Of a stretch of 64,000 bases of DNA, positions 1 through 26,472 are shown in pieces. How positions within the stretch are numbered: position 1 is the stretch's first letter; each line of letters starts with the position of its first letter. The position numbers were made by a program, and so were the translations under genes. Below the pieces are notes generated by a model. The model searched no databases, was not told the DNA's origin, and saw nothing but the letters and a program-made list of their open reading frames with translations. Location of the stretch: the NCBI GenBank assembly GCA_000146465.1, contig CP001949.1; one strand, given 5' to 3'.

Positions 1-1468
1 GAGACATGCATTCTTCGTATATTCCACTGGCATCTATCCCTCTTCTCTCTCCAAGCTCTGCATATAGAAGCCAGTGCTTATAATCAAACAGATCCTTTCC
101 TAACTCCTCAAAAGCCCTTTCCAGGCTTATTTGAGACAGGATTACATATTTTCTTATTGTCCTCATCTTTCCAGGAATCACAGAATAGCTGCTGTGGAAG
201 TCTCCTCCCATGTAATACATCTTCGATCTAGCAAGGATAAATGTTTTCTTCTCTCTCCCGTACTGTCTCATTCCGCTCCTTAGAATCTTCTCGGCCCTCC
301 GGAAATATCCAATCTCCTTGCTCCCCACAAACAGCTTCCACCACTCCTTGGCCTTCATCAAATCAACAAAATACCTACGAGGCTCCATCACAAAAAATCT
401 CTCAATGAACTCGGAGTCCAGAAAATACTCCTTTGCAACATTATAGCAGGAAATAAACGTCTCGTCGTCATGGAGCCCATGCTTGCTCATCGAGACAAAC
501 AGAGACCAGAGGTCAGAAGGAAGAGCTGACATCGGCTCAGGTCTCTCCCCTTGCAGGTAGAGGAGAAGGGTATCTTTGGAGAGGATGGGGGACGGAAGCT
601 CGACCCTCCGCTTTCCTCTTCGAAGAATCCGAAGAGTTCCTTCCAGTCCAAGTCTGAGAAGATCTTCAACCACCATCGAGTTGTCTCCATCTTCCACCAG
701 ACAGCTCAGAAGATGCTCCGAGTAGATTCCTTTGTCCCTAAGGACTCTGTACAGAGACTCCACAAGCCCATGGTTGGGTTTTGTGCCAATAAACAGATCT
801 ACAAGTCTCTCCTCATGAGTCTCAACCACACTTTCATATAGGAACATCTGTTTCTCCAAAATATCTTCCAGATTCTCGCTCATCATTTTTCGGAGACCAA
901 AACTCCTGGGATGTCTTGAGACCCCAGCCCTCAGGATCTTGATGTCTCTGTCTTTTCGAAACAGATCTTCATAAAAGCCTTCATCTCCGTCTACAACCTC
1001 CAATGCCTCGTCAAGCATGTCGGATGCATAGTATCTACTAATAATCTCTCTCCACAGTCTCTCGTCCTTGATGTCTCGGCCCTCGAGCAATATCTTTGAA
1101 CCCTCGTTTCTCCCAACAAGTCTACTGAGTCTGATTCTCGCATCCACATTCAAACGGTTCTTCTTCAATAAGTTCCTTAGGACGTGGGTCTTCCATTCGT
1201 TATTTTCCTGGTCCTGCTCTCCATCCATCTCCACTTCCTCTATTCCTTTCCAAGAAGGAATGTGTCTGGAAGTGGCTTCCTCTATATCCATCTTTCCAAG
1301 AGCCTCCACCTCCTCTCTGGAAAGTATCCTTTGCTTTGGATCCTTTATTTTCCTCTTTCTTTTTTCTTCTATTGCTGTGTAGATCTCGTCCTCCTCTCCG
1401 TCATATCTAGATGCAGTGTTCTGTTCAAACAGACTCCTTATGTCAAAGAGCTTTCTTCCTTTTCCCAT
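1..1468 (-). CDS. N-terminal ~489 aa of a larger HAT/TPR-repeat protein, possibly pre-mRNA splicing factor Prp6-like; the ORF runs off the window start
   Basis: My manual reverse-complement translation from the ATG at 1468 is open to position 1, with an in-frame TAA immediately upstream of the ATG. The ORF track lacks it because there is no stop inside the window. The N-terminal 'DGEEDEIYTAIEEKRKRK' resembles the Prp6 N-terminal domain, and later 'KHWLLYAELGE'-type half-TPR repeats are present. Confidence 0.45.
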   Translation of the reverse strand, partial: MGKGRKLFDIRSLFEQNTASRYDGEEDEIYTAIEEKRKRKIKDPKQRILSREEVEALGKMDIEEATSRHIPSWKGIEEVEMDGEQDQENNEWKTHVLRNLLKKNRLNVDARIRLSRLVGRNEGSKILLEGRDIKDERLWREIISRYYASDMLDEALEVVDGDEGFYEDLFRKDRDIKILRAGVSRHPRSFGLRKMMSENLEDILEKQMFLYESVVETHEERLVDLFIGTKPNHGLVESLYRVLRDKGIYSEHLLSCLVEDGDNSMVVEDLLRLGLEGTLRILRRGKRRVELPSPILSKDTLLLYLQGERPEPMSALPSDLWSLFVSMSKHGLHDDETFISCYNVAKEYFLDSEFIERFFVMEPRRYFVDLMKAKEWWKLFVGSKEIGYFRRAEKILRSGMRQYGREKKTFILARSKMYYMGGDFHSSYSVIPGKMRTIRKYVILSQISLERAFEELGKDLFDYKHWLLYAELGERRGIDASGIYEECMS

Positions 1469-1525
1469 AGGCACAGCACAAAGAACACAAAAATAAATCC
1501 GATGTGGGGCATTAAAACTTTAGAG

Positions 1526-3325
1526 ATGGGCGAGGAGAAAGACACAAAGAAGAAGAGGGTTTCGTTTGCACCTGAGCCTCAGGTGATGTATATATATCCT
1601 GAAGAGGAGAACAAAAGCAACAAGGCTGTAGACTCTGGAATGATGAGCGAGGATGAGATATCTGTGGAGCTGACGGTAGATCATCTTCGAGGGAGGAAGA
1701 CAGAAGACGGAGGAGATGGAGAATTTTTGAATGCAGAGCTGAAGGATTTGATGGAGGATAGTGAGGTTGGGTATGGAGCCATGGGTGACAACAGTGGAAA
1801 AGAAGATGAGGTGGAAAAAGAGAAGTGCAAGGAGAACTATGGGGTGGAGGAAGGAGAGATTAAAGAAGTCAAGGATGATGAAGAGTGTAAGGAAGGAGGG
1901 GCTGAGAACAGCGAGACAGGGTGGAGAGAAGGGCCCTGTAGGAATGAACAGGAGGAATTTGAAGATACTCTGATGAGCAATGAGACAGTGAATGTAGAAG
2001 AGATCATCAACACCCAAGATCTTCGGAAGATAATTCCACAAGTGAGGAAAGAGATGGTGAATGTTTCTGAGCTACTGGTTTCCAAAGGAATCAGATTTCT
2101 GGACAGTCTTGTTGTGTCGAATACAAGAAGGGATACAATGTCGAAGTCGCGGAACGAGGTACATCCTCGGCAGGAAAGGTTCTACGAGAGTTTCCTGGAG
2201 CCTCGGACACGGTTCTTCTTGGAGTTCAGTTCTGATCTTGAGGATAGGATGTTGCGGCAGGAGAAGGTGAACGAGGAGCTGGAAAGAGAATTCAGGATTG
2301 CAGGGACTGTTTTTGAGAGCCCGGATGCCTCAAGCCTTCTGAGAGCTTTGAAGACGGAATGCCGGATGAAGTCTAAGATTGAGTGGTATGAGCTTCGTAA
2401 AGAGAAGGAAGTTGAGTTCAATAGAGAGGTAACTGATAGAAGGAATCGGCTTGCTGAAGAGTATAATCATCTTGGAGGATGTCTGAAGGAAACCTCTGAG
2501 AAGGTTGAAGAGAGTAAAAGAAGGAATGAAGAGATGGAGGAGCAGATACGCAGAATAAAGAATAGGCTTGGGATGGATGGGGATGGGAGGCACCAGAAGA
2601 TCTCTGAGCTGAGAGCATTGATGAGTAAGCAGGAGGGAACGATTGAGAGTGGAAGGAAGGAAGTGAAGAGACTTGAGGAAGAGAGAACAAGGAAGCAAGC
2701 CGAGAGACGTGTGCTGAAAGAAGCATTGGAGAAGATGGAGATGGAAATTAGAGACCTTGAGGAAGTGTTAAAAACCCAAAACATAACCGAGGGTGATGTG
2801 AAGGAAATAAGACAGGAGTTCCGGACATTGTGTGCAGCCTTTGGAATGGAACTAATGAAAGTAGATACAAGCGAGGTTAGGCTCCGAATACTGGAATACA
2901 ACCTCAAGATAAATCTAGGGGCTGGCTTCGTGATTGAATCGATTGAAGCCACTCCTCTGTGCGATAGAAAAGACCTGGGGCATCTCTACCACCACTTCGG
3001 AAAATACTTTGAAGGAAAGGGATGCAGCTTCTTCAAGGGAATTAGAGACGCCATGTTTATGTCGGCGATGGTGTCAGGGCTATGTAAAGAGTTGTCTGGA
3101 ATTAAGAAAAGACACTCTGTAGAATGCAGCGGGGAAGACAACGAAGCCATTGTTAGGATCTTAGCATTGGATGTGGAAAAGTGCACCAAGCATGAGATTT
3201 CCATCAAGATAAAAAATGGATTTGAATGCTTGATCCAATGGAAAGACAGAAGCCAGATGTGGGATCTTAAGAAGGATGTAGGTATAATATCCAGATCGGT
3301 CGAAGAAGCACTTGCAAATCGCTGA
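1526..3325 (+). CDS. Acidic coiled-coil protein with an N-terminal RVxF (KKKRVSFAPE) PP1-docking motif; candidate KNL1/Spc105-like kinetochore scaffold or another PP1 regulatory subunit
   Basis: ORF 1184..3325 trimmed to the first plausible ATG at 1526 (MGEEKDTKKKRVSFAPEP...). The protein has an acidic, low-complexity N-terminal half, a long heptad-rich E/K/R coiled coil in the middle and a C-terminal globular region. Confidence 0.4.
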   Translation: MGEEKDTKKKRVSFAPEPQVMYIYPEEENKSNKAVDSGMMSEDEISVELTVDHLRGRKTEDGGDGEFLNAELKDLMEDSEVGYGAMGDNSGKEDEVEKEKCKENYGVEEGEIKEVKDDEECKEGGAENSETGWREGPCRNEQEEFEDTLMSNETVNVEEIINTQDLRKIIPQVRKEMVNVSELLVSKGIRFLDSLVVSNTRRDTMSKSRNEVHPRQERFYESFLEPRTRFFLEFSSDLEDRMLRQEKVNEELEREFRIAGTVFESPDASSLLRALKTECRMKSKIEWYELRKEKEVEFNREVTDRRNRLAEEYNHLGGCLKETSEKVEESKRRNEEMEEQIRRIKNRLGMDGDGRHQKISELRALMSKQEGTIESGRKEVKRLEEERTRKQAERRVLKEALEKMEMEIRDLEEVLKTQNITEGDVKEIRQEFRTLCAAFGMELMKVDTSEVRLRILEYNLKINLGAGFVIESIEATPLCDRKDLGHLYHHFGKYFEGKGCSFFKGIRDAMFMSAMVSGLCKELSGIKKRHSVECSGEDNEAIVRILALDVEKCTKHEISIKIKNGFECLIQWKDRSQMWDLKKDVGIISRSVEEALANR

Positions 3326-3410
3326 CGGCCATTGGAGTCTTTGATAAATTGTTAATCCCGGGACAGGAGTCCGAGTAATAAACAATTAGTTTATTGATAG
3401 ATCACATTTG

Positions 3411-3773
3411 TTATAATTTGTCCTTCTCTTCTTCGGAGTCCTGGGGCTTTGAATTCCCCGGGAGTGCATAGTACTCTTGCAGAGACCGGTTGAAGTCTTC
3501 AAGACATCTTATCAGTACGTCTTCCTCCATGTTCTCAACCTGCATTCCCTCGTACAAAGAAACAGCCTTTTCATAAACAAGTCTCTGATGCTGGATGGAC
3601 TTGGATAGAAGCTCCAGGTCCTCCTTAGGACATGTCTCCGAGATATCCCCAACAACCCTGTCTAAGATGGTTCTAAGAACAGACAAGCTTTCGAGATGCT
3701 CTCCTTTTCTTATGGCTTTCTCTAGCTTTAAGTAGTTCTCCCTGTCCATAGGAAGGGCCACGAATCTAAACAT
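3411..3773 (-). CDS. Hypothetical protein (120 aa)
   Basis: Clean ORF in a tight intergenic context; no recognisable motif. Confidence 0.4.
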   Translation of the reverse strand: MFRFVALPMDRENYLKLEKAIRKGEHLESLSVLRTILDRVVGDISETCPKEDLELLSKSIQHQRLVYEKAVSLYEGMQVENMEEDVLIRCLEDFNRSLQEYYALPGNSKPQDSEEEKDKL

Positions 3774-3911
3774 TTGATTCCAGGAAGCCTAGATTAAGAA
3801 TTAGATTTTGAAAGCTCCCAGAAATATCTTAATATATAGTCCAGTGATATAATTCTCAATTGATATCTATTTAATTAAAGGATAAAAAGCCAGAGCATCC
3901 AAACTCTCTTA

Positions 3912-4876
3912 ATGGAGAAGAATCAGGCCGAGCCAGAAAAGAACATAAGTTACACAAAACTTGCATTTTTCTTTTTCGTAATAAGAACAGTAGTAATAGG
4001 TCTGGCCTTACTATCGGGACCATACTTTGCACTAGATGACGAAACAACAACATTCAAGATGTTTATAATTTTCTTGGACATAACAAACATATTACAGTTT
4101 ATATTTCAATGGGACATAATTCAGCGTAAGATTCTATTTCAATATCTTCTATATATTCCTGTCCTTGCTTACTCTCTGACTCTTACAATCACGTTAATAG
4201 TTGATGCACACAATACTAACAGTTGTAACTTCAAAGTAGAAGGTAAAATTAAGAAATTAGCTATTGGATATATCTATACATATATGGGAATTCTTCTTGG
4301 GGAAGTTGCTCTCCTTCCAATCATATACAGAAGACTCAAGAGTGACTTTATGTGGGCAAACTTCAAAAAGCTAGGAGCTAACACAGCTATTAATGGTAAG
4401 TGGAGATAAGTAATTTTAGATGCCTTCGGGAGGAGAGAACAGTTTAGTGCAATAAGAAGATTTATGTTGATTTTTCTGTGTGGAGAAGTTGCAAGTTTCA
4501 ATATAAGCATAAGAGATAACAAAGATGTCTTCTTTTTTGTAGCAGGGACACAGATATTTGTGATTTTCCTTTCTTTTATATTTTTCAACGAAGAATATGT
4601 ACATCAGAGAAGGTTTCTTCTGGGATTTTCCGGACTGTGTACATTAGGAGGAATAGCATACACTGTGATTTATATTGTTATGGCTAGTAGGAGTAGCGAA
4701 ATAAGAAAGTAAGTGAAGATGTTAATTTTAGAGGAGTTATTTCCGAAATTGTATTCTATACAATTACAATGCTTATTTTCTTTGTTGGAGCCTTTAGGGA
4801 TTATCAGACATTTGGGAAGGGACTAAAAGATTATTATAGTGGAAGTCTTGGAATAAGAAAAAAACTCACACCTTAG
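3912..4876 (+). CDS. Three-exon multi-pass membrane protein, ~305 aa after splicing; exons 3912..4395, 4420..4708 and 4732..4876
   Basis: ORFs 3912..4409 and 4464..4712 each end at a TAA embedded in GTAAGT. Removing introns 4396..4419 and 4709..4731 joins both in frame to a third exon that stops at TAG 4874..4876. All three exons encode hydrophobic helices. Confidence 0.55.
4396..4419 (+). other. Spliceosomal intron 1 (24 nt) gtaagtggagataagtaattttag
   Basis: Canonical GTAAGT 5' splice site and TAATTTTAG 3' end. Removing it restores the reading frame across the two ORFs. Confidence 0.55.
4709..4731 (+). other. Spliceosomal intron 2 (23 nt) gtaagtgaagatgttaattttag
   Basis: Same GTAAGTG...TAATTTTAG architecture. 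The apparent stop TAA at 4710..4712 lies inside it, and the downstream exon stays open for 47 codons with a transmembrane-like segment. Confidence 0.45.
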
Positions 4877-4894
4877 GCAGAGCAGAATACTTTT

Positions 4895-5298
4895 CCACGA
4901 GACAATAAAAACCAAAGACTTTATTTCTCTTGGGGACTCCCCGCATACACCGTCATCCGGCTGTTCCCCAACACCTTCTCAATCACCCCCTCAGACGCTA
5001 GGTGCCGCAACACATTCTCCGCAACCCCGAGGTTCAGATTGTACTTGCTCCCAACACCATACCGCGTCACAACACTCGCTCGGCACACATCCTTGCGCAC
5101 CTTCGACAGGAGCTCCTCGGTCACCGTCACTCCCCTGCGCACTTCCTCCTTCTTCTTTCCGTCGCTCCACTTCTTCTTGTCCTTCCTTGTTCCAGACATG
5201 GCCTTGAGTGCCTTCTTCTCCTTCGACTCCTGGATCTTCTTGGCCATTTGTGGGAGTCCAATTTTCCCACTTCAAATCCCATCCCAGAAACTCCCAAA
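4895..5298. repeat. Left arm of a ~404-bp inverted repeat carrying a complete RPS25 gene; the right arm is at 6723..7127
   Basis: The reverse complement of 4895..5298 matches 6723..7127 at both boundaries. The encoded 108-aa RPS25 ORFs and the antisense shadow ORFs are identical in both arms. Confidence 0.8.
4921..5247 (-). CDS. RPS25: 40S ribosomal protein S25 (eS25), copy A
   Basis: 108 aa MAKKIQESKEKKALKAMSG...VTRYGVGSKYNLNLG..., the typical eS25 lysine-rich N-terminus and conserved core. Confidence 0.85.
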   Translation of the reverse strand: MAKKIQESKEKKALKAMSGTRKDKKKWSDGKKKEEVRRGVTVTEELLSKVRKDVCRASVVTRYGVGSKYNLNLGVAENVLRHLASEGVIEKVLGNSRMTVYAGSPQEK

Positions 5299-5365
5299 GA
5301 AGCCCATAGCCTCCGAATGCCAGGAGTGGATTTCTGGATTGGAAAAATTTGCCCTCAATCTAAAG

Positions 5366-5812
5366 ATGGCAAAGATGCATTCTAGCGGAAGAGGACGCTC
5401 GGGGAGCGTTAAGCCGTATGCAACAGTGTTTCCAACATGGCTGACAAAGACGGCTGATGAAATTAAGGCCGATGTTATCCAGATGGGAAACAAGGGGATT
5501 CCTGCACCTGATATAGGGAAAAAGCTAAGAGACGAATATGGAGTCGGAAATGCCAAGGACGTCCTGGGGTGTGAAATCACAAAGTTCCTTGAAGAGAATG
5601 GGGCATCTCCAAAGATCCCATTTGATCTTGAGTCTCTGGTTCGCCGAGCGAACACCCTCCGAAGTCACTTGAACATCTATAGGAAAGACAACTCTGCAAA
5701 ATACAGACTTATCCTTGTTTCATCCCGGATGTATCGTGTTGCAAGGTACTACAAGCGCAAGATGAGGATTCCAGGGAACTGGAAGCCAAAGCTTGTTGAG
5801 CTCATTAAATGA
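5366..5812 (+). CDS. RPS13: 40S ribosomal protein S13 (uS15)
   Basis: MAKMHSSGRGRSGSVKPY...RLILVSSRMYRVARYYKRKMRIPGNWK is a hallmark S13 sequence. ORF 5039..5812 is trimmed to the internal ATG at 5366, which sits behind a ggaaaaatttgccc upstream motif. Confidence 0.85.
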   Translation: MAKMHSSGRGRSGSVKPYATVFPTWLTKTADEIKADVIQMGNKGIPAPDIGKKLRDEYGVGNAKDVLGCEITKFLEENGASPKIPFDLESLVRRANTLRSHLNIYRKDNSAKYRLILVSSRMYRVARYYKRKMRIPGNWKPKLVELIK

Positions 5813-5930
5813 TCTTCTTGAAGTCTCGAACTGGCTGTTTCAAGGCCACCTCTGTGTGTTTTTGACGTCTTTCCAACAGGCGATTTTATTTGCGAAGAGA
5901 GGTATATTTTGTGAAAAACAAACCCCGTGA

Positions 5931-6626
5931 ATGTATGAGGAGCTCTTGAACTTTCTGCTGGCGAGGAAGAAGAGGCTGCTGTCTGAGGAAGAGGCCGATA
6001 GACTTATGGAGCTTATTACCCAGTCGATGGAAGCCAGAGAGGGCCGGGAAGGGAAAGAGGACAATACAGCATTGATAAGGAAGATCCTCGAAAATGTGGA
6101 TATGGACCAAGCTTACGAAACAGACACTGAGAGCATGGAAAATGCTATGGAAGATTTGCTTTTTGATGGCTACAGCAGCGAAATTTACAGCAACGATACT
6201 ATAGACTTGAGCGAGTCTGACAACGACACAGAGCCTCTGTCTGAGCGGAAGTTCCAGAGAGGAGAGTTTAGAGCTGGAGTGAAGGCTTCTGAGAATGAAG
6301 AGGAGCCGAAGAGGAGGATTGGGCTCAAAGACAAAGCAAAAGAAGGGGAATGGAAGGATCTGTCGGGAGGGAAGGATAACGATCTCCAACCACCAAAGGA
6401 TAGCACAGGAGTTCTGTCGGAGGATGGGGAAGGCCCCAAGAGAAGGGAATTCAAGCTCCCTGGATTTAGTAAGGAGAAGAAGGAGAGATCATTTGAGATG
6501 AGGGATGGCGGGGACTTTAACTTGCCAGGGTCTGTGGAATTTGAGTTTGATCTCGGAGAACTAAAGAAGGTGAATAATACCGGGCCGAATGTGAAGTTTT
6601 TCGACGAGGATGGAGAAGAGATCTGA
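5931..6626 (+). CDS. Hypothetical acidic, low-complexity protein (231 aa)
   Basis: ORF with D/E/S-rich composition lying between RPS13 and the right repeat arm. Confidence 0.4.
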   Translation: MYEELLNFLLARKKRLLSEEEADRLMELITQSMEAREGREGKEDNTALIRKILENVDMDQAYETDTESMENAMEDLLFDGYSSEIYSNDTIDLSESDNDTEPLSERKFQRGEFRAGVKASENEEEPKRRIGLKDKAKEGEWKDLSGGKDNDLQPPKDSTGVLSEDGEGPKRREFKLPGFSKEKKERSFEMRDGGDFNLPGSVEFEFDLGELKKVNNTGPNVKFFDEDGEEI

Positions 6627-6722
6627 AAGTCTTTGGTTTTGAATGTAGAGTAATAGTGACTGTTTTATGGATGAATTATCTTTATTAAAGTAGCAAGTTC
6701 TCTCAATGATTGTGTTTTTTCT

Positions 6723-7127
6723 TTTGGGAGTTTCTGGGATGGGATTTGAAGTGGGAAAATTGGACTCCCACAAATGGCCAAGAAGATCCAGGAGTCGAAG
6801 GAGAAGAAGGCACTCAAGGCCATGTCTGGAACAAGGAAGGACAAGAAGAAGTGGAGCGACGGAAAGAAGAAGGAGGAAGTGCGCAGGGGAGTGACGGTGA
6901 CCGAGGAGCTCCTGTCGAAGGTGCGCAAGGATGTGTGCCGAGCGAGTGTTGTGACGCGGTATGGTGTTGGGAGCAAGTACAATCTGAACCTCGGGGTTGC
7001 GGAGAATGTGTTGCGGCACCTAGCGTCTGAGGGGGTGATTGAGAAGGTGTTGGGGAACAGCCGGATGACGGTGTATGCGGGGAGTCCCCAAGAGAAATAA
7101 AGTCTTTGGTTTTTATTGTCTCGTGGC
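6723..7127. repeat. Right arm of the inverted repeat; identical RPS25 copy
   Basis: See the left arm; boundaries determined by base-level comparison. Confidence 0.8.
6774..7100 (+). CDS. RPS25: 40S ribosomal protein S25 (eS25), copy B
   Basis: Identical 108-aa protein to copy A, on the opposite strand. Confidence 0.85.
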   Translation: MAKKIQESKEKKALKAMSGTRKDKKKWSDGKKKEEVRRGVTVTEELLSKVRKDVCRASVVTRYGVGSKYNLNLGVAENVLRHLASEGVIEKVLGNSRMTVYAGSPQEK

Positions 7128-7192
7128 AGCATTGGAACTTTTCTGTTGAGTGGCTGTTATCTTAAAATATCGCATTAAAAATTTACCCCACA

Positions 7193-8674
7193 ATGACATA
7201 CAGAGGGTATAGTGGAGATAGAAGAGGGTTTCGGACGTCGCCCAGATTTGACAGAGGGGGCAGATATCCTCCTCGGGAAAGACGTGAGGGACAGAGATAC
7301 GATCCTCTTCCAGAGCTTCCTCCTGTGGAGTTTCAGAAGAACTTCTACAAGGAGGCGGAGTCTATCAGTAGAATGAGTTCGCGCGATGTCGATTCGTTCA
7401 GGAAGACAAACGAGATGACGGTCAAGGGGATGGATATTCCACATCCGATCAGCCGGTTTGAGGAGGCAGGGTTTCCCTCTAGGATTGTGGAGGAGCTTGA
7501 AGGAAAGGGATTCAGTGGGCCCACGCCTATCCAAGCACAAGGATGGCCGATGGCATTAAGCGGAAGGGATATGGTAGGGATTGCACAGACTGGATCTGGA
7601 AAGACACTGAGTTTTATTCTTCCTGGGCTTGTGCATGCAAAGGATCAGCAGCCTCTGCGAAGAGGGGACGGGCCTATTGCGCTTGTGCTTGCGCCGACTC
7701 GGGAGCTTGTGATGCAAATCAAGAAAGTTGCCGACGAGTTCTGTGGGATGTTTGGACTAAGGAGTACAGCGGTTTATGGAGGAGCTTCATCGCAGCCACA
7801 AATAAAGGCTTTGCATGAGGGGGTAGAAATAGTTATTGCAACTCCTGGAAGGTTGATTGACCTGCATGAGCAAGGGCATGCACCGCTTAGCAGAGTGACA
7901 TTCCTTGTTCTTGACGAGGCCGACAGGATGCTTGACATGGGGTTTGAGCCGCAGCTCCGAAAGATTATTCCAAAGACAAATGGAAACAGACAGACATTAA
8001 TGTGGAGTGCAACATGGCCGAGAGAGGTGCGAGGACTGGCAGAAAGCTACATGAATGATTACATTCAAGTGGTTGTTGGAAATGAAGAGCTTAAGACAAA
8101 CAGCAAGATCAAGCAAGTGATTGAAGTCTGTAGTGGACGTGAGAAGGAGGACAAGCTGCTTGGAGTTCTTGACAAATTCAAGGGAGACAAGGTCATTGTG
8201 TTCTGCAACATGAAAAGAACATGCGACGATTTGGAGTATGTTCTGAATAGATCTGGGTATGGGGCTGCAGCATTGCATGGAGACAAATCGCAGAACATTC
8301 GAGATAAAGTTCTTGATGACTTCCGATCAGGGAGGAGGCCGATTCTAATTGCCACAGAGGTTGCAGGAAGAGGACTTGATGTAAATGACGTCAAGCTTGT
8401 GATCAACTTCGACTTCCCAGGGACATGCGAGGACTATGTGCATCGAATTGGAAGGACGGCAAGAGGCAACACAAAGGAGGGGATATCGCATACATTCTTT
8501 ACAATCAACGACAAAGGAAATGCACGGGAGCTGATCCGGATGCTAAGAGAAGCCAATCAGACGGTTCCTTCTGATCTCGAGGACATGGTGAGAGTGTCGA
8601 ACGATAGATATGGATCCAGGGGTGTCAAACACGACTACAGAGGAAGACCTGGGAGATTTCCTTATCGAGGATGA
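7193..8674 (+). CDS. DBP2: DEAD-box ATP-dependent RNA helicase, Dbp2/p68 type
   Basis: Q-motif (GFSGPTPIQAQ), AQTGSGKT, PTRELV, DEAD (LVLDEADRM), SAT, HRIGRTAR, and an RGG-like N-terminus. Confidence 0.9.
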   Translation: MTYRGYSGDRRGFRTSPRFDRGGRYPPRERREGQRYDPLPELPPVEFQKNFYKEAESISRMSSRDVDSFRKTNEMTVKGMDIPHPISRFEEAGFPSRIVEELEGKGFSGPTPIQAQGWPMALSGRDMVGIAQTGSGKTLSFILPGLVHAKDQQPLRRGDGPIALVLAPTRELVMQIKKVADEFCGMFGLRSTAVYGGASSQPQIKALHEGVEIVIATPGRLIDLHEQGHAPLSRVTFLVLDEADRMLDMGFEPQLRKIIPKTNGNRQTLMWSATWPREVRGLAESYMNDYIQVVVGNEELKTNSKIKQVIEVCSGREKEDKLLGVLDKFKGDKVIVFCNMKRTCDDLEYVLNRSGYGAAALHGDKSQNIRDKVLDDFRSGRRPILIATEVAGRGLDVNDVKLVINFDFPGTCEDYVHRIGRTARGNTKEGISHTFFTINDKGNARELIRMLREANQTVPSDLEDMVRVSNDRYGSRGVKHDYRGRPGRFPYRG

Positions 8675-26196: not shown

Positions 26197-26472
26197 ATGG
26201 AGTTGCGATATAGATTGTAAGTGGAAGCAACTAATTTTAGGGTTTTTGGCAGAAAGGGTGTTCTGATCGAAGACCGAGCTCTGAAGGAGTTTGTGAGCGG
26301 GCTTATCCGGGGCTTTGGGGGCCTTGATTTGCTGAGCAGAGTTAGTGTAAGATGTGATGGAGGAGTGATCAATATCTCGGCGGACAAAGAGGCTTCTAGC
26401 ATTGTGCATGGATCTCTATTTCTCTGCGGAGAGTATAAGTCTGTTGGATGTAGATTTGAGCGAATCGATTAA
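26197..26472 (+). CDS. Two-exon small protein (~84 aa): exon 1 26197..26216, intron 26217..26240, exon 2 26241..26472
   Basis: ATGGAGTTGCGATATAGATT|gtaagtggaagcaactaattttag|G GTT TTT GGC... The splice fuses ATG plus 6 codons to ORF 26221..26472, which the ORF finder could only open with GTG. A CCCC motif lies just upstream of the ATG. Confidence 0.5.
26217..26240 (+). other. Spliceosomal intron (24 nt) gtaagtggaagcaactaattttag close to the 5' end of the gene
   Basis: Near-identical to the intron at 4396..4419: GTAAGTGGA...CTAATTTTAG. Confidence 0.5.

What the first reader, a model, noticed from the sequence alone, without database searches (positions are those of the whole stretch)
3912..4876. 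Two 'separate' ORFs plus an unannotated tail form one three-exon membrane protein
ORF 3912..4409 and ORF 4464..4712 are joined in frame by removing 4396..4419. A second splice at 4709..4731 extends the protein by 47 codons to TAG 4874..4876, with a new transmembrane-like helix (IVFYTITMLIFFVGAF). This fills an otherwise unexplained 180-bp gap that ends 19 bp before the inverted repeat. A gene with two internal introns would be unusual for a microsporidian, where introns are few and mostly at the 5' end.
Basis: seen in the sequence. Interest (0 to 1): 0.5.

Follow-up and report, generated by a model that had tools for sequence, protein, structure and literature searches.

The report
Mis-annotated two-intron membrane protein gene
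The two short ORFs and the "empty" tail are one three-exon gene of Encephalitozoon intestinalis, split by two tiny spliceosomal introns; the gene model is right but already known from the E. cuniculi and Ordospora annotations and from a 2024 re-annotation table, so this corrects a database error and is not a discovery.

Summary
The window is E. intestinalis chromosome VIII (NC_014422:96001-160000).

- **Splice arithmetic.** Removing 4396..4419 (24 nt) and 4709..4731 (23 nt) joins 3912..4876 into a 305-aa ORF.
- **Intron motif.** Both introns read GTAAGT…TAATTTTAG. The window has 3 such sites against 0.01 expected by chance.
- **Orthologue evidence.** The same splice of E. cuniculi DNA gives exactly ECU08_1030 (NP_597233.2). 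The same splice of Ordospora DNA gives exactly M896_091030.
- **Conservation.** Both introns sit in the same codon and phase in 7 microsporidian lineages and in the paralogue ECU08_0950. Intron-free homologues read straight through both sites.
- **Selection.** Substitutions in exon 3 fall 50/25/141 on codon positions 1/2/3.
- **Prior report.** MicroAnnot Table S2 (PMC10815200) already lists CDS 99912-100876 (= 3912..4876) as intron-containing.
- **Current records.** GenBank E. intestinalis records still hold two fragments (165 and 82 aa). E. hellem records place the second acceptor 2 nt too far downstream.
- **Product.** A predicted 8-helix membrane protein, distantly related to fungal UPF0658/DUF7789. 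Its function is unknown.

Novelty: already known. Interest is low.

The parts
3912..4395 (+). Exon 1 (ATG 3912; 161 codons + 1 nt; predicted helices 1-4). GenBank annotates it with read-through as Eint_081030, 165 aa.
4396..4419 (+). Intron 1, 24 nt, phase 1, GTAAGTGGAGATAAGTAATTTTAG. It carries the in-frame TAA that ends the 165-aa ORF.
4420..4708 (+). Exon 2 (289 nt; helices 5-7). Its first 44 nt, coding the 3' part of the split codon (D) plus AFGRREQFSAIRRF, lie upstream of ATG 4464, the start used for the 82-aa GenBank fragment GPK93_08g14030.
   Evidence: substitutions 3/6/45 by codon position
4709..4731 (+). Intron 2, 23 nt, phase 2, GTAAGTGAAGATGTTAATTTTAG.
4732..4876 (+). Exon 3 (145 nt: third base of the split Lys codon, 47 codons and stop TAG 4874..4876). 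It encodes helix 8 and the family-invariant motif DY.TFGKGLK.YY. It is unannotated in all E. intestinalis GenBank records.
   Evidence: (50/25/141)
4904..4909 (+). The only + strand AATAAA between 3800 and 5000, 28 nt after the stop. It is a candidate poly(A) signal for the whole three-exon unit; none follows 4409 or 4712.
   Evidence: an AATAAA follows the stop at a similar distance in E. cuniculi, E. hellem and L003. Assigning it this role is inference.

Best explanation
3912..4876 (+) is a single protein-coding gene of Encephalitozoon intestinalis, the orthologue of E. cuniculi ECU08_1030. It is interrupted by two canonical Encephalitozoon-type miniature spliceosomal introns of 24 and 23 nt. 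Each has the 5' site GTAAGT and a TAATTTT branch-point-like motif directly abutting the 3' AG.

The reduced microsporidian spliceosome removes both introns from the pre-mRNA. The mature mRNA encodes a 305-aa polytopic membrane protein with about 8 helices. Exon 1 supplies helices 1-4, exon 2 helices 5-7, and exon 3 helix 8 plus the conserved C-terminal DY.FG.GLK motif. The protein belongs to a microsporidian family that is a distant branch of the fungal UPF0658/DUF7789 'Golgi apparatus membrane protein' family, whose biochemical function is unknown.

Unspliced transcripts would stop at TAA 4407..4409 and give a 165-aa, four-helix product. Transcripts retaining only intron 2 would stop at TAA 4710..4712. 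The GenBank models (165 aa and 82 aa, no exon 3) are annotation artefacts.

Shown here: the sequence signals, their statistical excess, exact orthologue models, conservation of intron position and phase, the purifying-selection pattern, and contiguity in intron-free homologues.

Inferred: that splicing actually occurs in E. intestinalis, the membrane topology, and the endomembrane location.
For: - **Arithmetic and motifs**. The strict motif occurs 3 times against 0.01 expected.
- **Species and current annotation**.
- **Exact orthologue models.** The same two-intron splice of E. cuniculi DNA equals NP_597233.2 / CAD26409.2 exactly. The same splice of Ordospora colligata DNA equals KHN69175.1 (M896_091030) exactly.
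- **Conservation with length change.** Four-species DNA alignment shows both introns conserved. Intron 1 is 24 nt in E. intestinalis and E. cuniculi but 25 nt in E. hellem and in L003 (an unnamed close relative assembled from run SRR23946965), yet the downstream frame and protein are kept.
- **Codon-position bias.** Substitutions are 50/25/141 in exon 3 and 3/6/45 in the 42 nt upstream of ATG 4464.
- **Same site everywhere.** Every intron 1 falls in one alignment column at phase 1 and every intron 2 in another column at phase 2. This holds across Encephalitozoon, Ordospora, two further microsporidian assemblies and the 26 %-identical paralogue ECU08_0950. Homologues without the intron(s) (L008, P0030, P0038, P0039, P0040) are continuous there.
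- **Family-invariant residues** span all three exons.
- **Published curated boundaries** 99912-100876 on NC_014422 equal window 3912-4876.
- **E. cuniculi RNA-seq.** All previously annotated introns were found spliced, and ECU08_1030 is expressed at about 38-44 FPKM.
- **Distant family link.** HMM E = 1e-5 against 5.8 billion proteins, and hhalign probability 96 % over residues 11-296.
- **Structure.** An 8-helix AF2 model.
Against: - No transcript data for E. intestinalis could be examined.
- I could not read Lee et al. 2010, nor the x-axis of Grisdale Fig. 2, so I cannot confirm that ECU08_1030 is among the experimentally verified junctions.
- Short E. cuniculi introns are spliced inefficiently: average below 20 %, and 81 % of junctions below 50 %. 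Most transcripts may therefore stay unspliced.
- The protein itself has no Pfam hit.
- The AF2 model is only moderate (pLDDT 66) and has no meaningful PDB neighbour, so the functional part of the statement is weak.
Confidence: 0.93

Rival explanations
1. The GenBank model is right: two independent small genes (165 aa and 82 aa) followed by a non-coding 3' spacer.
For: All four E. intestinalis annotation sets carry these fragments. Both are open ORFs starting with ATG.
Against: - The 42 nt upstream of ATG 4464 and the whole 'spacer' evolve like coding sequence in the spliced frames (3/6/45 and 50/25/141).
- Family-invariant motifs straddle both junctions.
- Intron-free homologues are single ORFs.
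- E. cuniculi, Ordospora and the curated E. intestinalis table all use the joined model.
Confidence: 0.02
2. A decaying pseudogene: the stop at 4407 and the frameshift near 4709 are disabling mutations that happen to resemble introns.
For: There is an in-frame stop and a frame change, and the E. cuniculi orthologue is expressed at a low level.
Against: - The same two interruptions, with canonical GTAAGT…TAATTTTAG signals, sit in the same codon and phase in at least 7 lineages and in a paralogue.
- The exons show strong third-position bias.
- The motif is 300-fold enriched over chance.
Confidence: 0.01
3. The gene is spliced, but intron 2 uses the acceptor AG 2 nt downstream (4732..4733), as annotated in E. 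hellem. This would give a different, shorter C-terminus.
For: Three E. hellem GenBank models (P0002-P0004) use exactly that acceptor. Grisdale 2013 reports rare use (<5 %) of downstream acceptors in three E. cuniculi genes.
Against: - That frame gives non-conserved tails.
- The TAATTTTAG| acceptor gives a 47-aa tail that is conserved, including the family-invariant F..G.GL motif, and ends at the aligned stop in all species.
- The E. cuniculi and Ordospora models use the upstream AG.
Confidence: 0.03
4. The frame is restored at translation, by stop-codon read-through and programmed +1/-1 frameshifting, and not by RNA splicing.
For: None specific. This is only the formal alternative for joining the frames.
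Against: - Both interruptions carry full spliceosomal signals.
- Intron 1 varies between 23 and 26 nt among lineages without affecting the flanking protein.
- The sequences between the signals are not conserved as codons.
Confidence: 0.005

Closest known systems
ECU08_1030 of Encephalitozoon cuniculi GB-M1 (NP_597233.2 / CAD26409.2, 305 aa) and M896_091030 of Ordospora colligata OC4 (KHN69175.1, 306 aa)
   Same: - Syntenic orthologues, with an Spc7-like gene and a 112-aa gene upstream and RPS25 downstream.
- 69 % identity to ECU08_1030.
- Identical three-exon structure, with introns in the same codon and phase and the same GTAAGT…TAATTTTAG signals.
   Different: Only species-level sequence divergence. 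In E. intestinalis the GenBank records never received the joined model.
Curated E. intestinalis re-annotation used in MicroAnnot (PMC10815200, Table S2, sheet 'intron prediction': NC_014422 99912-100876)
   Same: Exactly the same CDS boundaries as 3912..4876 once the 96,000-nt offset is applied. The offset is cross-checked by 122197-122472 = 26197..26472, 99411-99749 = 3411..3749 and 97526-99325 = 1526..3325.
   Different: The table gives only the outer boundaries, not the intron coordinates or the protein.
Encephalitozoon short spliceosomal introns (Lee et al. 2010; Grisdale et al. 2013, PMC3629993)
   Same: Length 22-76 nt, GT-AG boundaries, a strict 5' site and a strict branch-point motif. 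Many lie in non-ribosomal genes without 5' bias, and a few genes carry two.
   Different: Nothing structural. Splicing efficiency here is untested.
ECU08_0950 (E. cuniculi paralogue, 311 aa)
   Same: Same family (phmmer E = 2e-6). It has two introns of 25 and 24 nt in the same alignment columns and phases.
   Different: Only about 23-26 % identity. It lies about 9 kb upstream in E. cuniculi, and its E. intestinalis counterpart (probably 90110-91087) falls outside the window.
Fungal UPF0658 'Golgi apparatus membrane protein' (S. pombe C23H3.04-like) / Pfam DUF7789 (PF25044)
   Same: - Shared motifs F.W..(F/Y)K..GA……(A/M)Y and NFG.GLK.
- Profile hits at E about 1e-5.
- hhalign probability 96 %, over residues 11-296 for the DUF7789 protein P0046 and over residues 35-182 for the UPF0658 protein P0045.
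   Different: - Identity is only 15-24 %.
- The fungal proteins carry N- and/or C-terminal extensions of 100 aa or more.
- The microsporidian proteins do not reach any Pfam threshold on their own.
- The family has no established biochemical function.

Membership tests
Encephalitozoon-type miniature spliceosomal intron | GT…AG boundaries with the strict 5' site GTAAGT | tested here: met
   Both introns start with GTAAGT and end with AG. This holds in the orthologues, with one GTAGGT in L003 and one in L009.
Encephalitozoon-type miniature spliceosomal intron | Length within 22-76 nt, with a conserved branch-point motif next to the 3' AG | tested here: met
   The introns are 24 and 23 nt and both end in TAATTTTAG. 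The same ending is seen in the independent intron at 26217..26240. The range and the 'strict motifs' criterion come from Grisdale 2013.
Encephalitozoon-type miniature spliceosomal intron | Removal restores a conserved reading frame | tested here: met
Encephalitozoon-type miniature spliceosomal intron | Spliced junctions observed in RNA | not testable with these tools
   No E. intestinalis transcript data were available. For E. cuniculi there is only the general statement that all annotated introns were confirmed by RNA-seq.
ECU08_1030 orthologue group | Best full-length similarity and conserved gene neighbourhood | tested here: met
   E = 4e-128, 69 % identity and 99 % coverage. The flanking genes are the same.
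UPF0658 / DUF7789 (PF25044) | Pfam model hit at or above the gathering score | tested here: not met
   No Pfam family was found for the window protein, ECU08_1030, the paralogue or the four intron-free homologues. PF25044 does hit the distant relative P0046.
UPF0658 / DUF7789 (PF25044) | Profile-level homology covering the whole membrane domain, with shared signature motifs | tested here: met
   hmmsearch E = 1.1e-5 and 1.7e-5 against 5.8 billion sequences. hhalign probability is 96 %, aligning residues 11-296 with P0046. K151, G154, A155, F285, G288 and L289 are invariant across 62 sequences.
Nucleotide-sugar transporter (the name UniRef gives the E. hellem orthologue P0004) | Match to NST/TPT Pfam families, or a DMT-type 10-helix fold | tested here: not met

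The most novel reading that the evidence does not exclude
Both introns are ancient and actively retained. They sit in the same codon and phase in two paralogues that are only about 25 % identical, and in several microsporidian lineages. This one small family therefore holds 4 of the roughly 36 introns left in an Encephalitozoon genome.

Intron 1 falls exactly between the two four-helix halves of the protein. Inefficient splicing could therefore be used to set the ratio of a 165-aa half-protein to the full 8-helix protein, or simply to throttle expression. In that case the introns would be regulatory elements, not leftovers.
Probability: 0.12. Interest if true: 0.45.

Novelty: already known. 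Interest (0 to 1): 0.15.

Why it matters
The practical value is a database correction.

- Every public E. intestinalis record, including the 2023 telomere-to-telomere assembly and the 2025 drafts, splits this gene into a 165-aa and an 82-aa 'hypothetical protein' and omits exon 3.
- The three E. hellem records carry a frameshifted C-terminus caused by an acceptor placed 2 nt too far downstream.
- Correcting these gives one 305-aa, 8-helix membrane protein, and links an orphan microsporidian family to the fungal UPF0658/DUF7789 family.

Biologically it adds nothing new about microsporidian introns. It does give a tidy illustration that these two introns predate a gene duplication and have been kept in place across genera.

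Tried and rejected
- **Bacterial promoter/terminator scan**. Irrelevant for a microsporidian and no better than shuffles.
- **Rfam scan of 3000-7500**. Nothing found.
- **Single-sequence AF2**. pLDDT 41, unusable.
- **AFDB fold library.** Not available.
- **Literature searches.** Searches for ECU08_1030 and ECU08_0950 and attempts to open Lee et al. 2010 failed. The supplements of PMC6349667 and PMC8476143 did not list the gene. Grisdale's Fig. 2 and Additional file 2 are images only.
- **Minus-strand ORFs across the locus** (4274..4588 and 4416..4604). Not pursued, because the substitution pattern fits + strand codons.

Full report
**What the window is.** Exact-sequence look-ups place the window in Encephalitozoon intestinalis.
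- ORF 3912..4409 is Eint_081030 (ADM12035.1, 165 aa; also GPK93_08g14020).
- ORF 4464..4712 is GPK93_08g14030 / P7C65_08s1g12990 (82 aa).
- The neighbours are Eint_081020, the ribosomal protein S25 genes and Eint_081060.
- Coordinates in a published table fix the window as NC_014422 (chromosome VIII) 96001-160000 (four independent gene boundaries agree with an offset of 96,000).
- G+C is 39-49 %, which fits E. intestinalis (41.4 % genome-wide).

**Checking the observation.** The sequence is as described.
- 4396..4419 = GTAAGTGGAGATAAGTAATTTTAG (24 nt). It contains the TAA that ends the 165-aa ORF.
- 4709..4731 = GTAAGTGAAGATGTTAATTTTAG (23 nt). It changes the frame.
- Removing both joins 484 + 289 + 145 nt into 305 codons plus TAG 4874..4876.
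- The pattern GTAAGT-N(4-34)-TAATTTTAG occurs three times in the 64-kb window on both strands, against 0.01 expected from dinucleotide-preserving shuffles. A looser pattern gives 3 against 0.21.
- Two of the three sites lie in this gene, on the sense strand, exactly where an ORF breaks.

**Orthologues.** A search with the spliced product finds E. cuniculi ECU08_1030 (305 aa, 69 % identity, 99 % coverage, E = 4e-128) and three E. hellem proteins. I fetched the orthologous DNA.
- Splicing the E. cuniculi locus at the homologous GTAAGT…TAATTTTAG sites reproduces NP_597233.2 residue for residue.
- A brute-force enumeration of all GT…AG pairs, scored with a family HMM, picked the homologous two introns in Ordospora colligata. 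Its product is identical to the deposited M896_091030 (KHN69175.1).
- The three-exon model is therefore the reference model in two related species.
- The MicroAnnot paper (PMC10815200) lists, under 'intron prediction / correct CDS boundaries' for E. intestinalis, NC_014422 99912-100876. That is exactly window 3912-4876.

**Evolutionary evidence that the interruptions are removed before translation.**
1. In a four-species DNA alignment the intron signals are invariant or nearly so, while neighbouring codons diverge.
2. Intron 1 is 24 nt in E. intestinalis and E. cuniculi, 25 nt in E. hellem, Ordospora and L003 (an unnamed close relative assembled from run SRR23946965), 23 nt in L007 and 26 nt in L008. 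The downstream protein stays in register throughout, which is impossible without excision.
3. Pairwise substitutions by codon position are 50/25/141 in exon 3. They are 3/6/45 in the 42 nt of exon 2 that lie upstream of the ATG used for the 82-aa fragment. Both 'non-coding' stretches are thus under purifying selection in the spliced frame.
4. An exhaustive phmmer scan shows the same story in many microsporidian assemblies. It returns fragments of about 160 aa ending in …NGK/NGR plus junk (read-through of G|GTAAG), fragments of 80-107 aa (exon 2) and fragments of 43-54 aa (exon 3). It also returns full-length single-ORF homologues (P0030, P0038, P0039, P0040).
5. In a joint alignment every intron 1 falls in one column at phase 1 and every intron 2 in another column at phase 2. 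Genes lacking one or both introns (two tandem copies in L008, and the four single-ORF proteins) are continuous at those points.
6. Family-invariant residues lie in all three exons (FK..GA | A…R, E…R, D…FG.GL).

**A paralogue with the same introns.** E. cuniculi ECU08_0950 (311 aa, about 25 % identical) has a 25-nt and a 24-nt intron. They lie in the same codons and phases as those of ECU08_1030. Both introns therefore predate the duplication. Its E. intestinalis counterpart is probably the 90110-91087 entry of the same table, outside the window.

**State of the annotations.**
- The 2010 E. intestinalis annotation recognised only 14 introns. Later papers quote 36 for each Encephalitozoon species.
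- ADM12035.1 was never revised. The 2023 T2T and the 2025 draft annotations still carry the two fragments, and the exact 305-aa sequence is absent from a 15-billion-protein collection.
- The E. hellem models (296-300 aa) splice intron 1 correctly but use the AG 2 nt downstream for intron 2. This gives a frameshifted, non-conserved 38-aa tail in place of the conserved 47-aa one.

**How it most likely works.** The gene is transcribed as one unit. The only AATAAA on the + strand between 3800 and 5000 is 28 nt after the final stop; assigning it a poly(A) role is inference. Both introns are then removed by the reduced spliceosome.
- In E. cuniculi, all annotated introns were confirmed by RNA-seq.
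- Short introns there are spliced on average below 20 %, and genes with two introns can show different levels per intron.
- ECU08_1030 is expressed at about 40 FPKM.
- A sizeable share of transcripts may therefore encode only the 165-aa, four-helix N-terminal half. Whether that has any role is unknown.

**The protein.**
- Hydropathy gives 7-8 hydrophobic segments.
- An AF2 model of the E. cuniculi orthologue, built with a 62-sequence alignment, gives eight long helices (pLDDT 66, pTM 0.49). Intron 1 falls between helix 4 and helix 5, and intron 2 falls just before helix 8.
- Pfam finds nothing.
- A family profile reaches a fungal 'UPF0658 Golgi apparatus membrane protein C23H3.04' and a DUF7789 protein at E about 1e-5. 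hhalign probability is 96 %, over nearly the full length for the DUF7789 protein. A second profile gathers 606 family members, mostly fungal among those listed.
- No solved structure resembles the model, so UniRef's 'nucleotide-sugar transporter' label for one E. hellem orthologue is unsupported.
- My commitment: a polytopic endomembrane (probably Golgi/ER) protein of the UPF0658/DUF7789 superfamily, with unknown biochemical activity.

**Verdict.** The feature is already known: it is the reference model in E. cuniculi and Ordospora and appears in a published corrected list for E. intestinalis. The residual value is a GenBank correction for E. intestinalis and E. hellem, plus the note that these two introns are ancient and shared by paralogues. 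Interest is 0.15.

Noticed in passing
window 4895-5298 and 6723-7126 (central segment 5299-6722): A perfect 404-nt inverted repeat carries two identical ribosomal protein S25 genes. The 1,424-nt segment between the arms (RPS13 and the 231-aa gene Eint_081060) is in the opposite orientation in E. intestinalis compared with E. cuniculi and E. hellem. This is what recombination between the repeat arms would produce.
   Followed up: partly
window 26197-26472 (+), intron 26217-26240: This is the third strict intron motif in the window (GTAAGTGGAAGCAACTAATTTTAG). It lies 20 nt after an ATG and joins to give an 83-aa protein. That protein is annotated in only one 2025 E. intestinalis draft (P7C66_08s3g13240), and is listed in MicroAnnot Table S2 as 122197-122472.
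   Followed up: partly
L002 (E. hellem CP075154.1) gene 3001-3941; intron 2 at L002 3799-3821: The E. hellem GenBank models EHEL_081020, KMI_01g01690 and PFJ87_08g01210 place the acceptor of intron 2 two nucleotides too far downstream. They therefore end in a frameshifted 38-aa tail. The conserved model is 305 aa.
   Followed up: yes
L004 (E. cuniculi AL590448.1, ECU08_0950) introns at L004 1952-1976 and 2284-2307: The paralogue of the gene has two introns in the same codons and phases. This one family therefore holds 4 of the roughly 36 Encephalitozoon introns, and the introns predate the duplication.
   Followed up: yes
L008 (JGI metagenome 3300073835) genes at 364-1298 and 1501-2441: An uncultured microsporidian carries two tandem copies of the family. 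Each has intron 1 (26 nt) but no intron 2, and gene callers split each into fragments of 162-164 aa and 144 aa.
   Followed up: partly
window 1184-3325 (+): The mechanical ORF (713 aa, GTG start) over-extends the Spc7-like gene upstream. The curated start is 97526, i.e. window 1526, giving 599 aa.
   Followed up: no
P0004 (E. hellem PFJ87_08g01210): UniRef names this orthologue 'Nucleotide-sugar transporter…'. No Pfam, sequence or fold evidence obtained here supports that name.
   Followed up: yes
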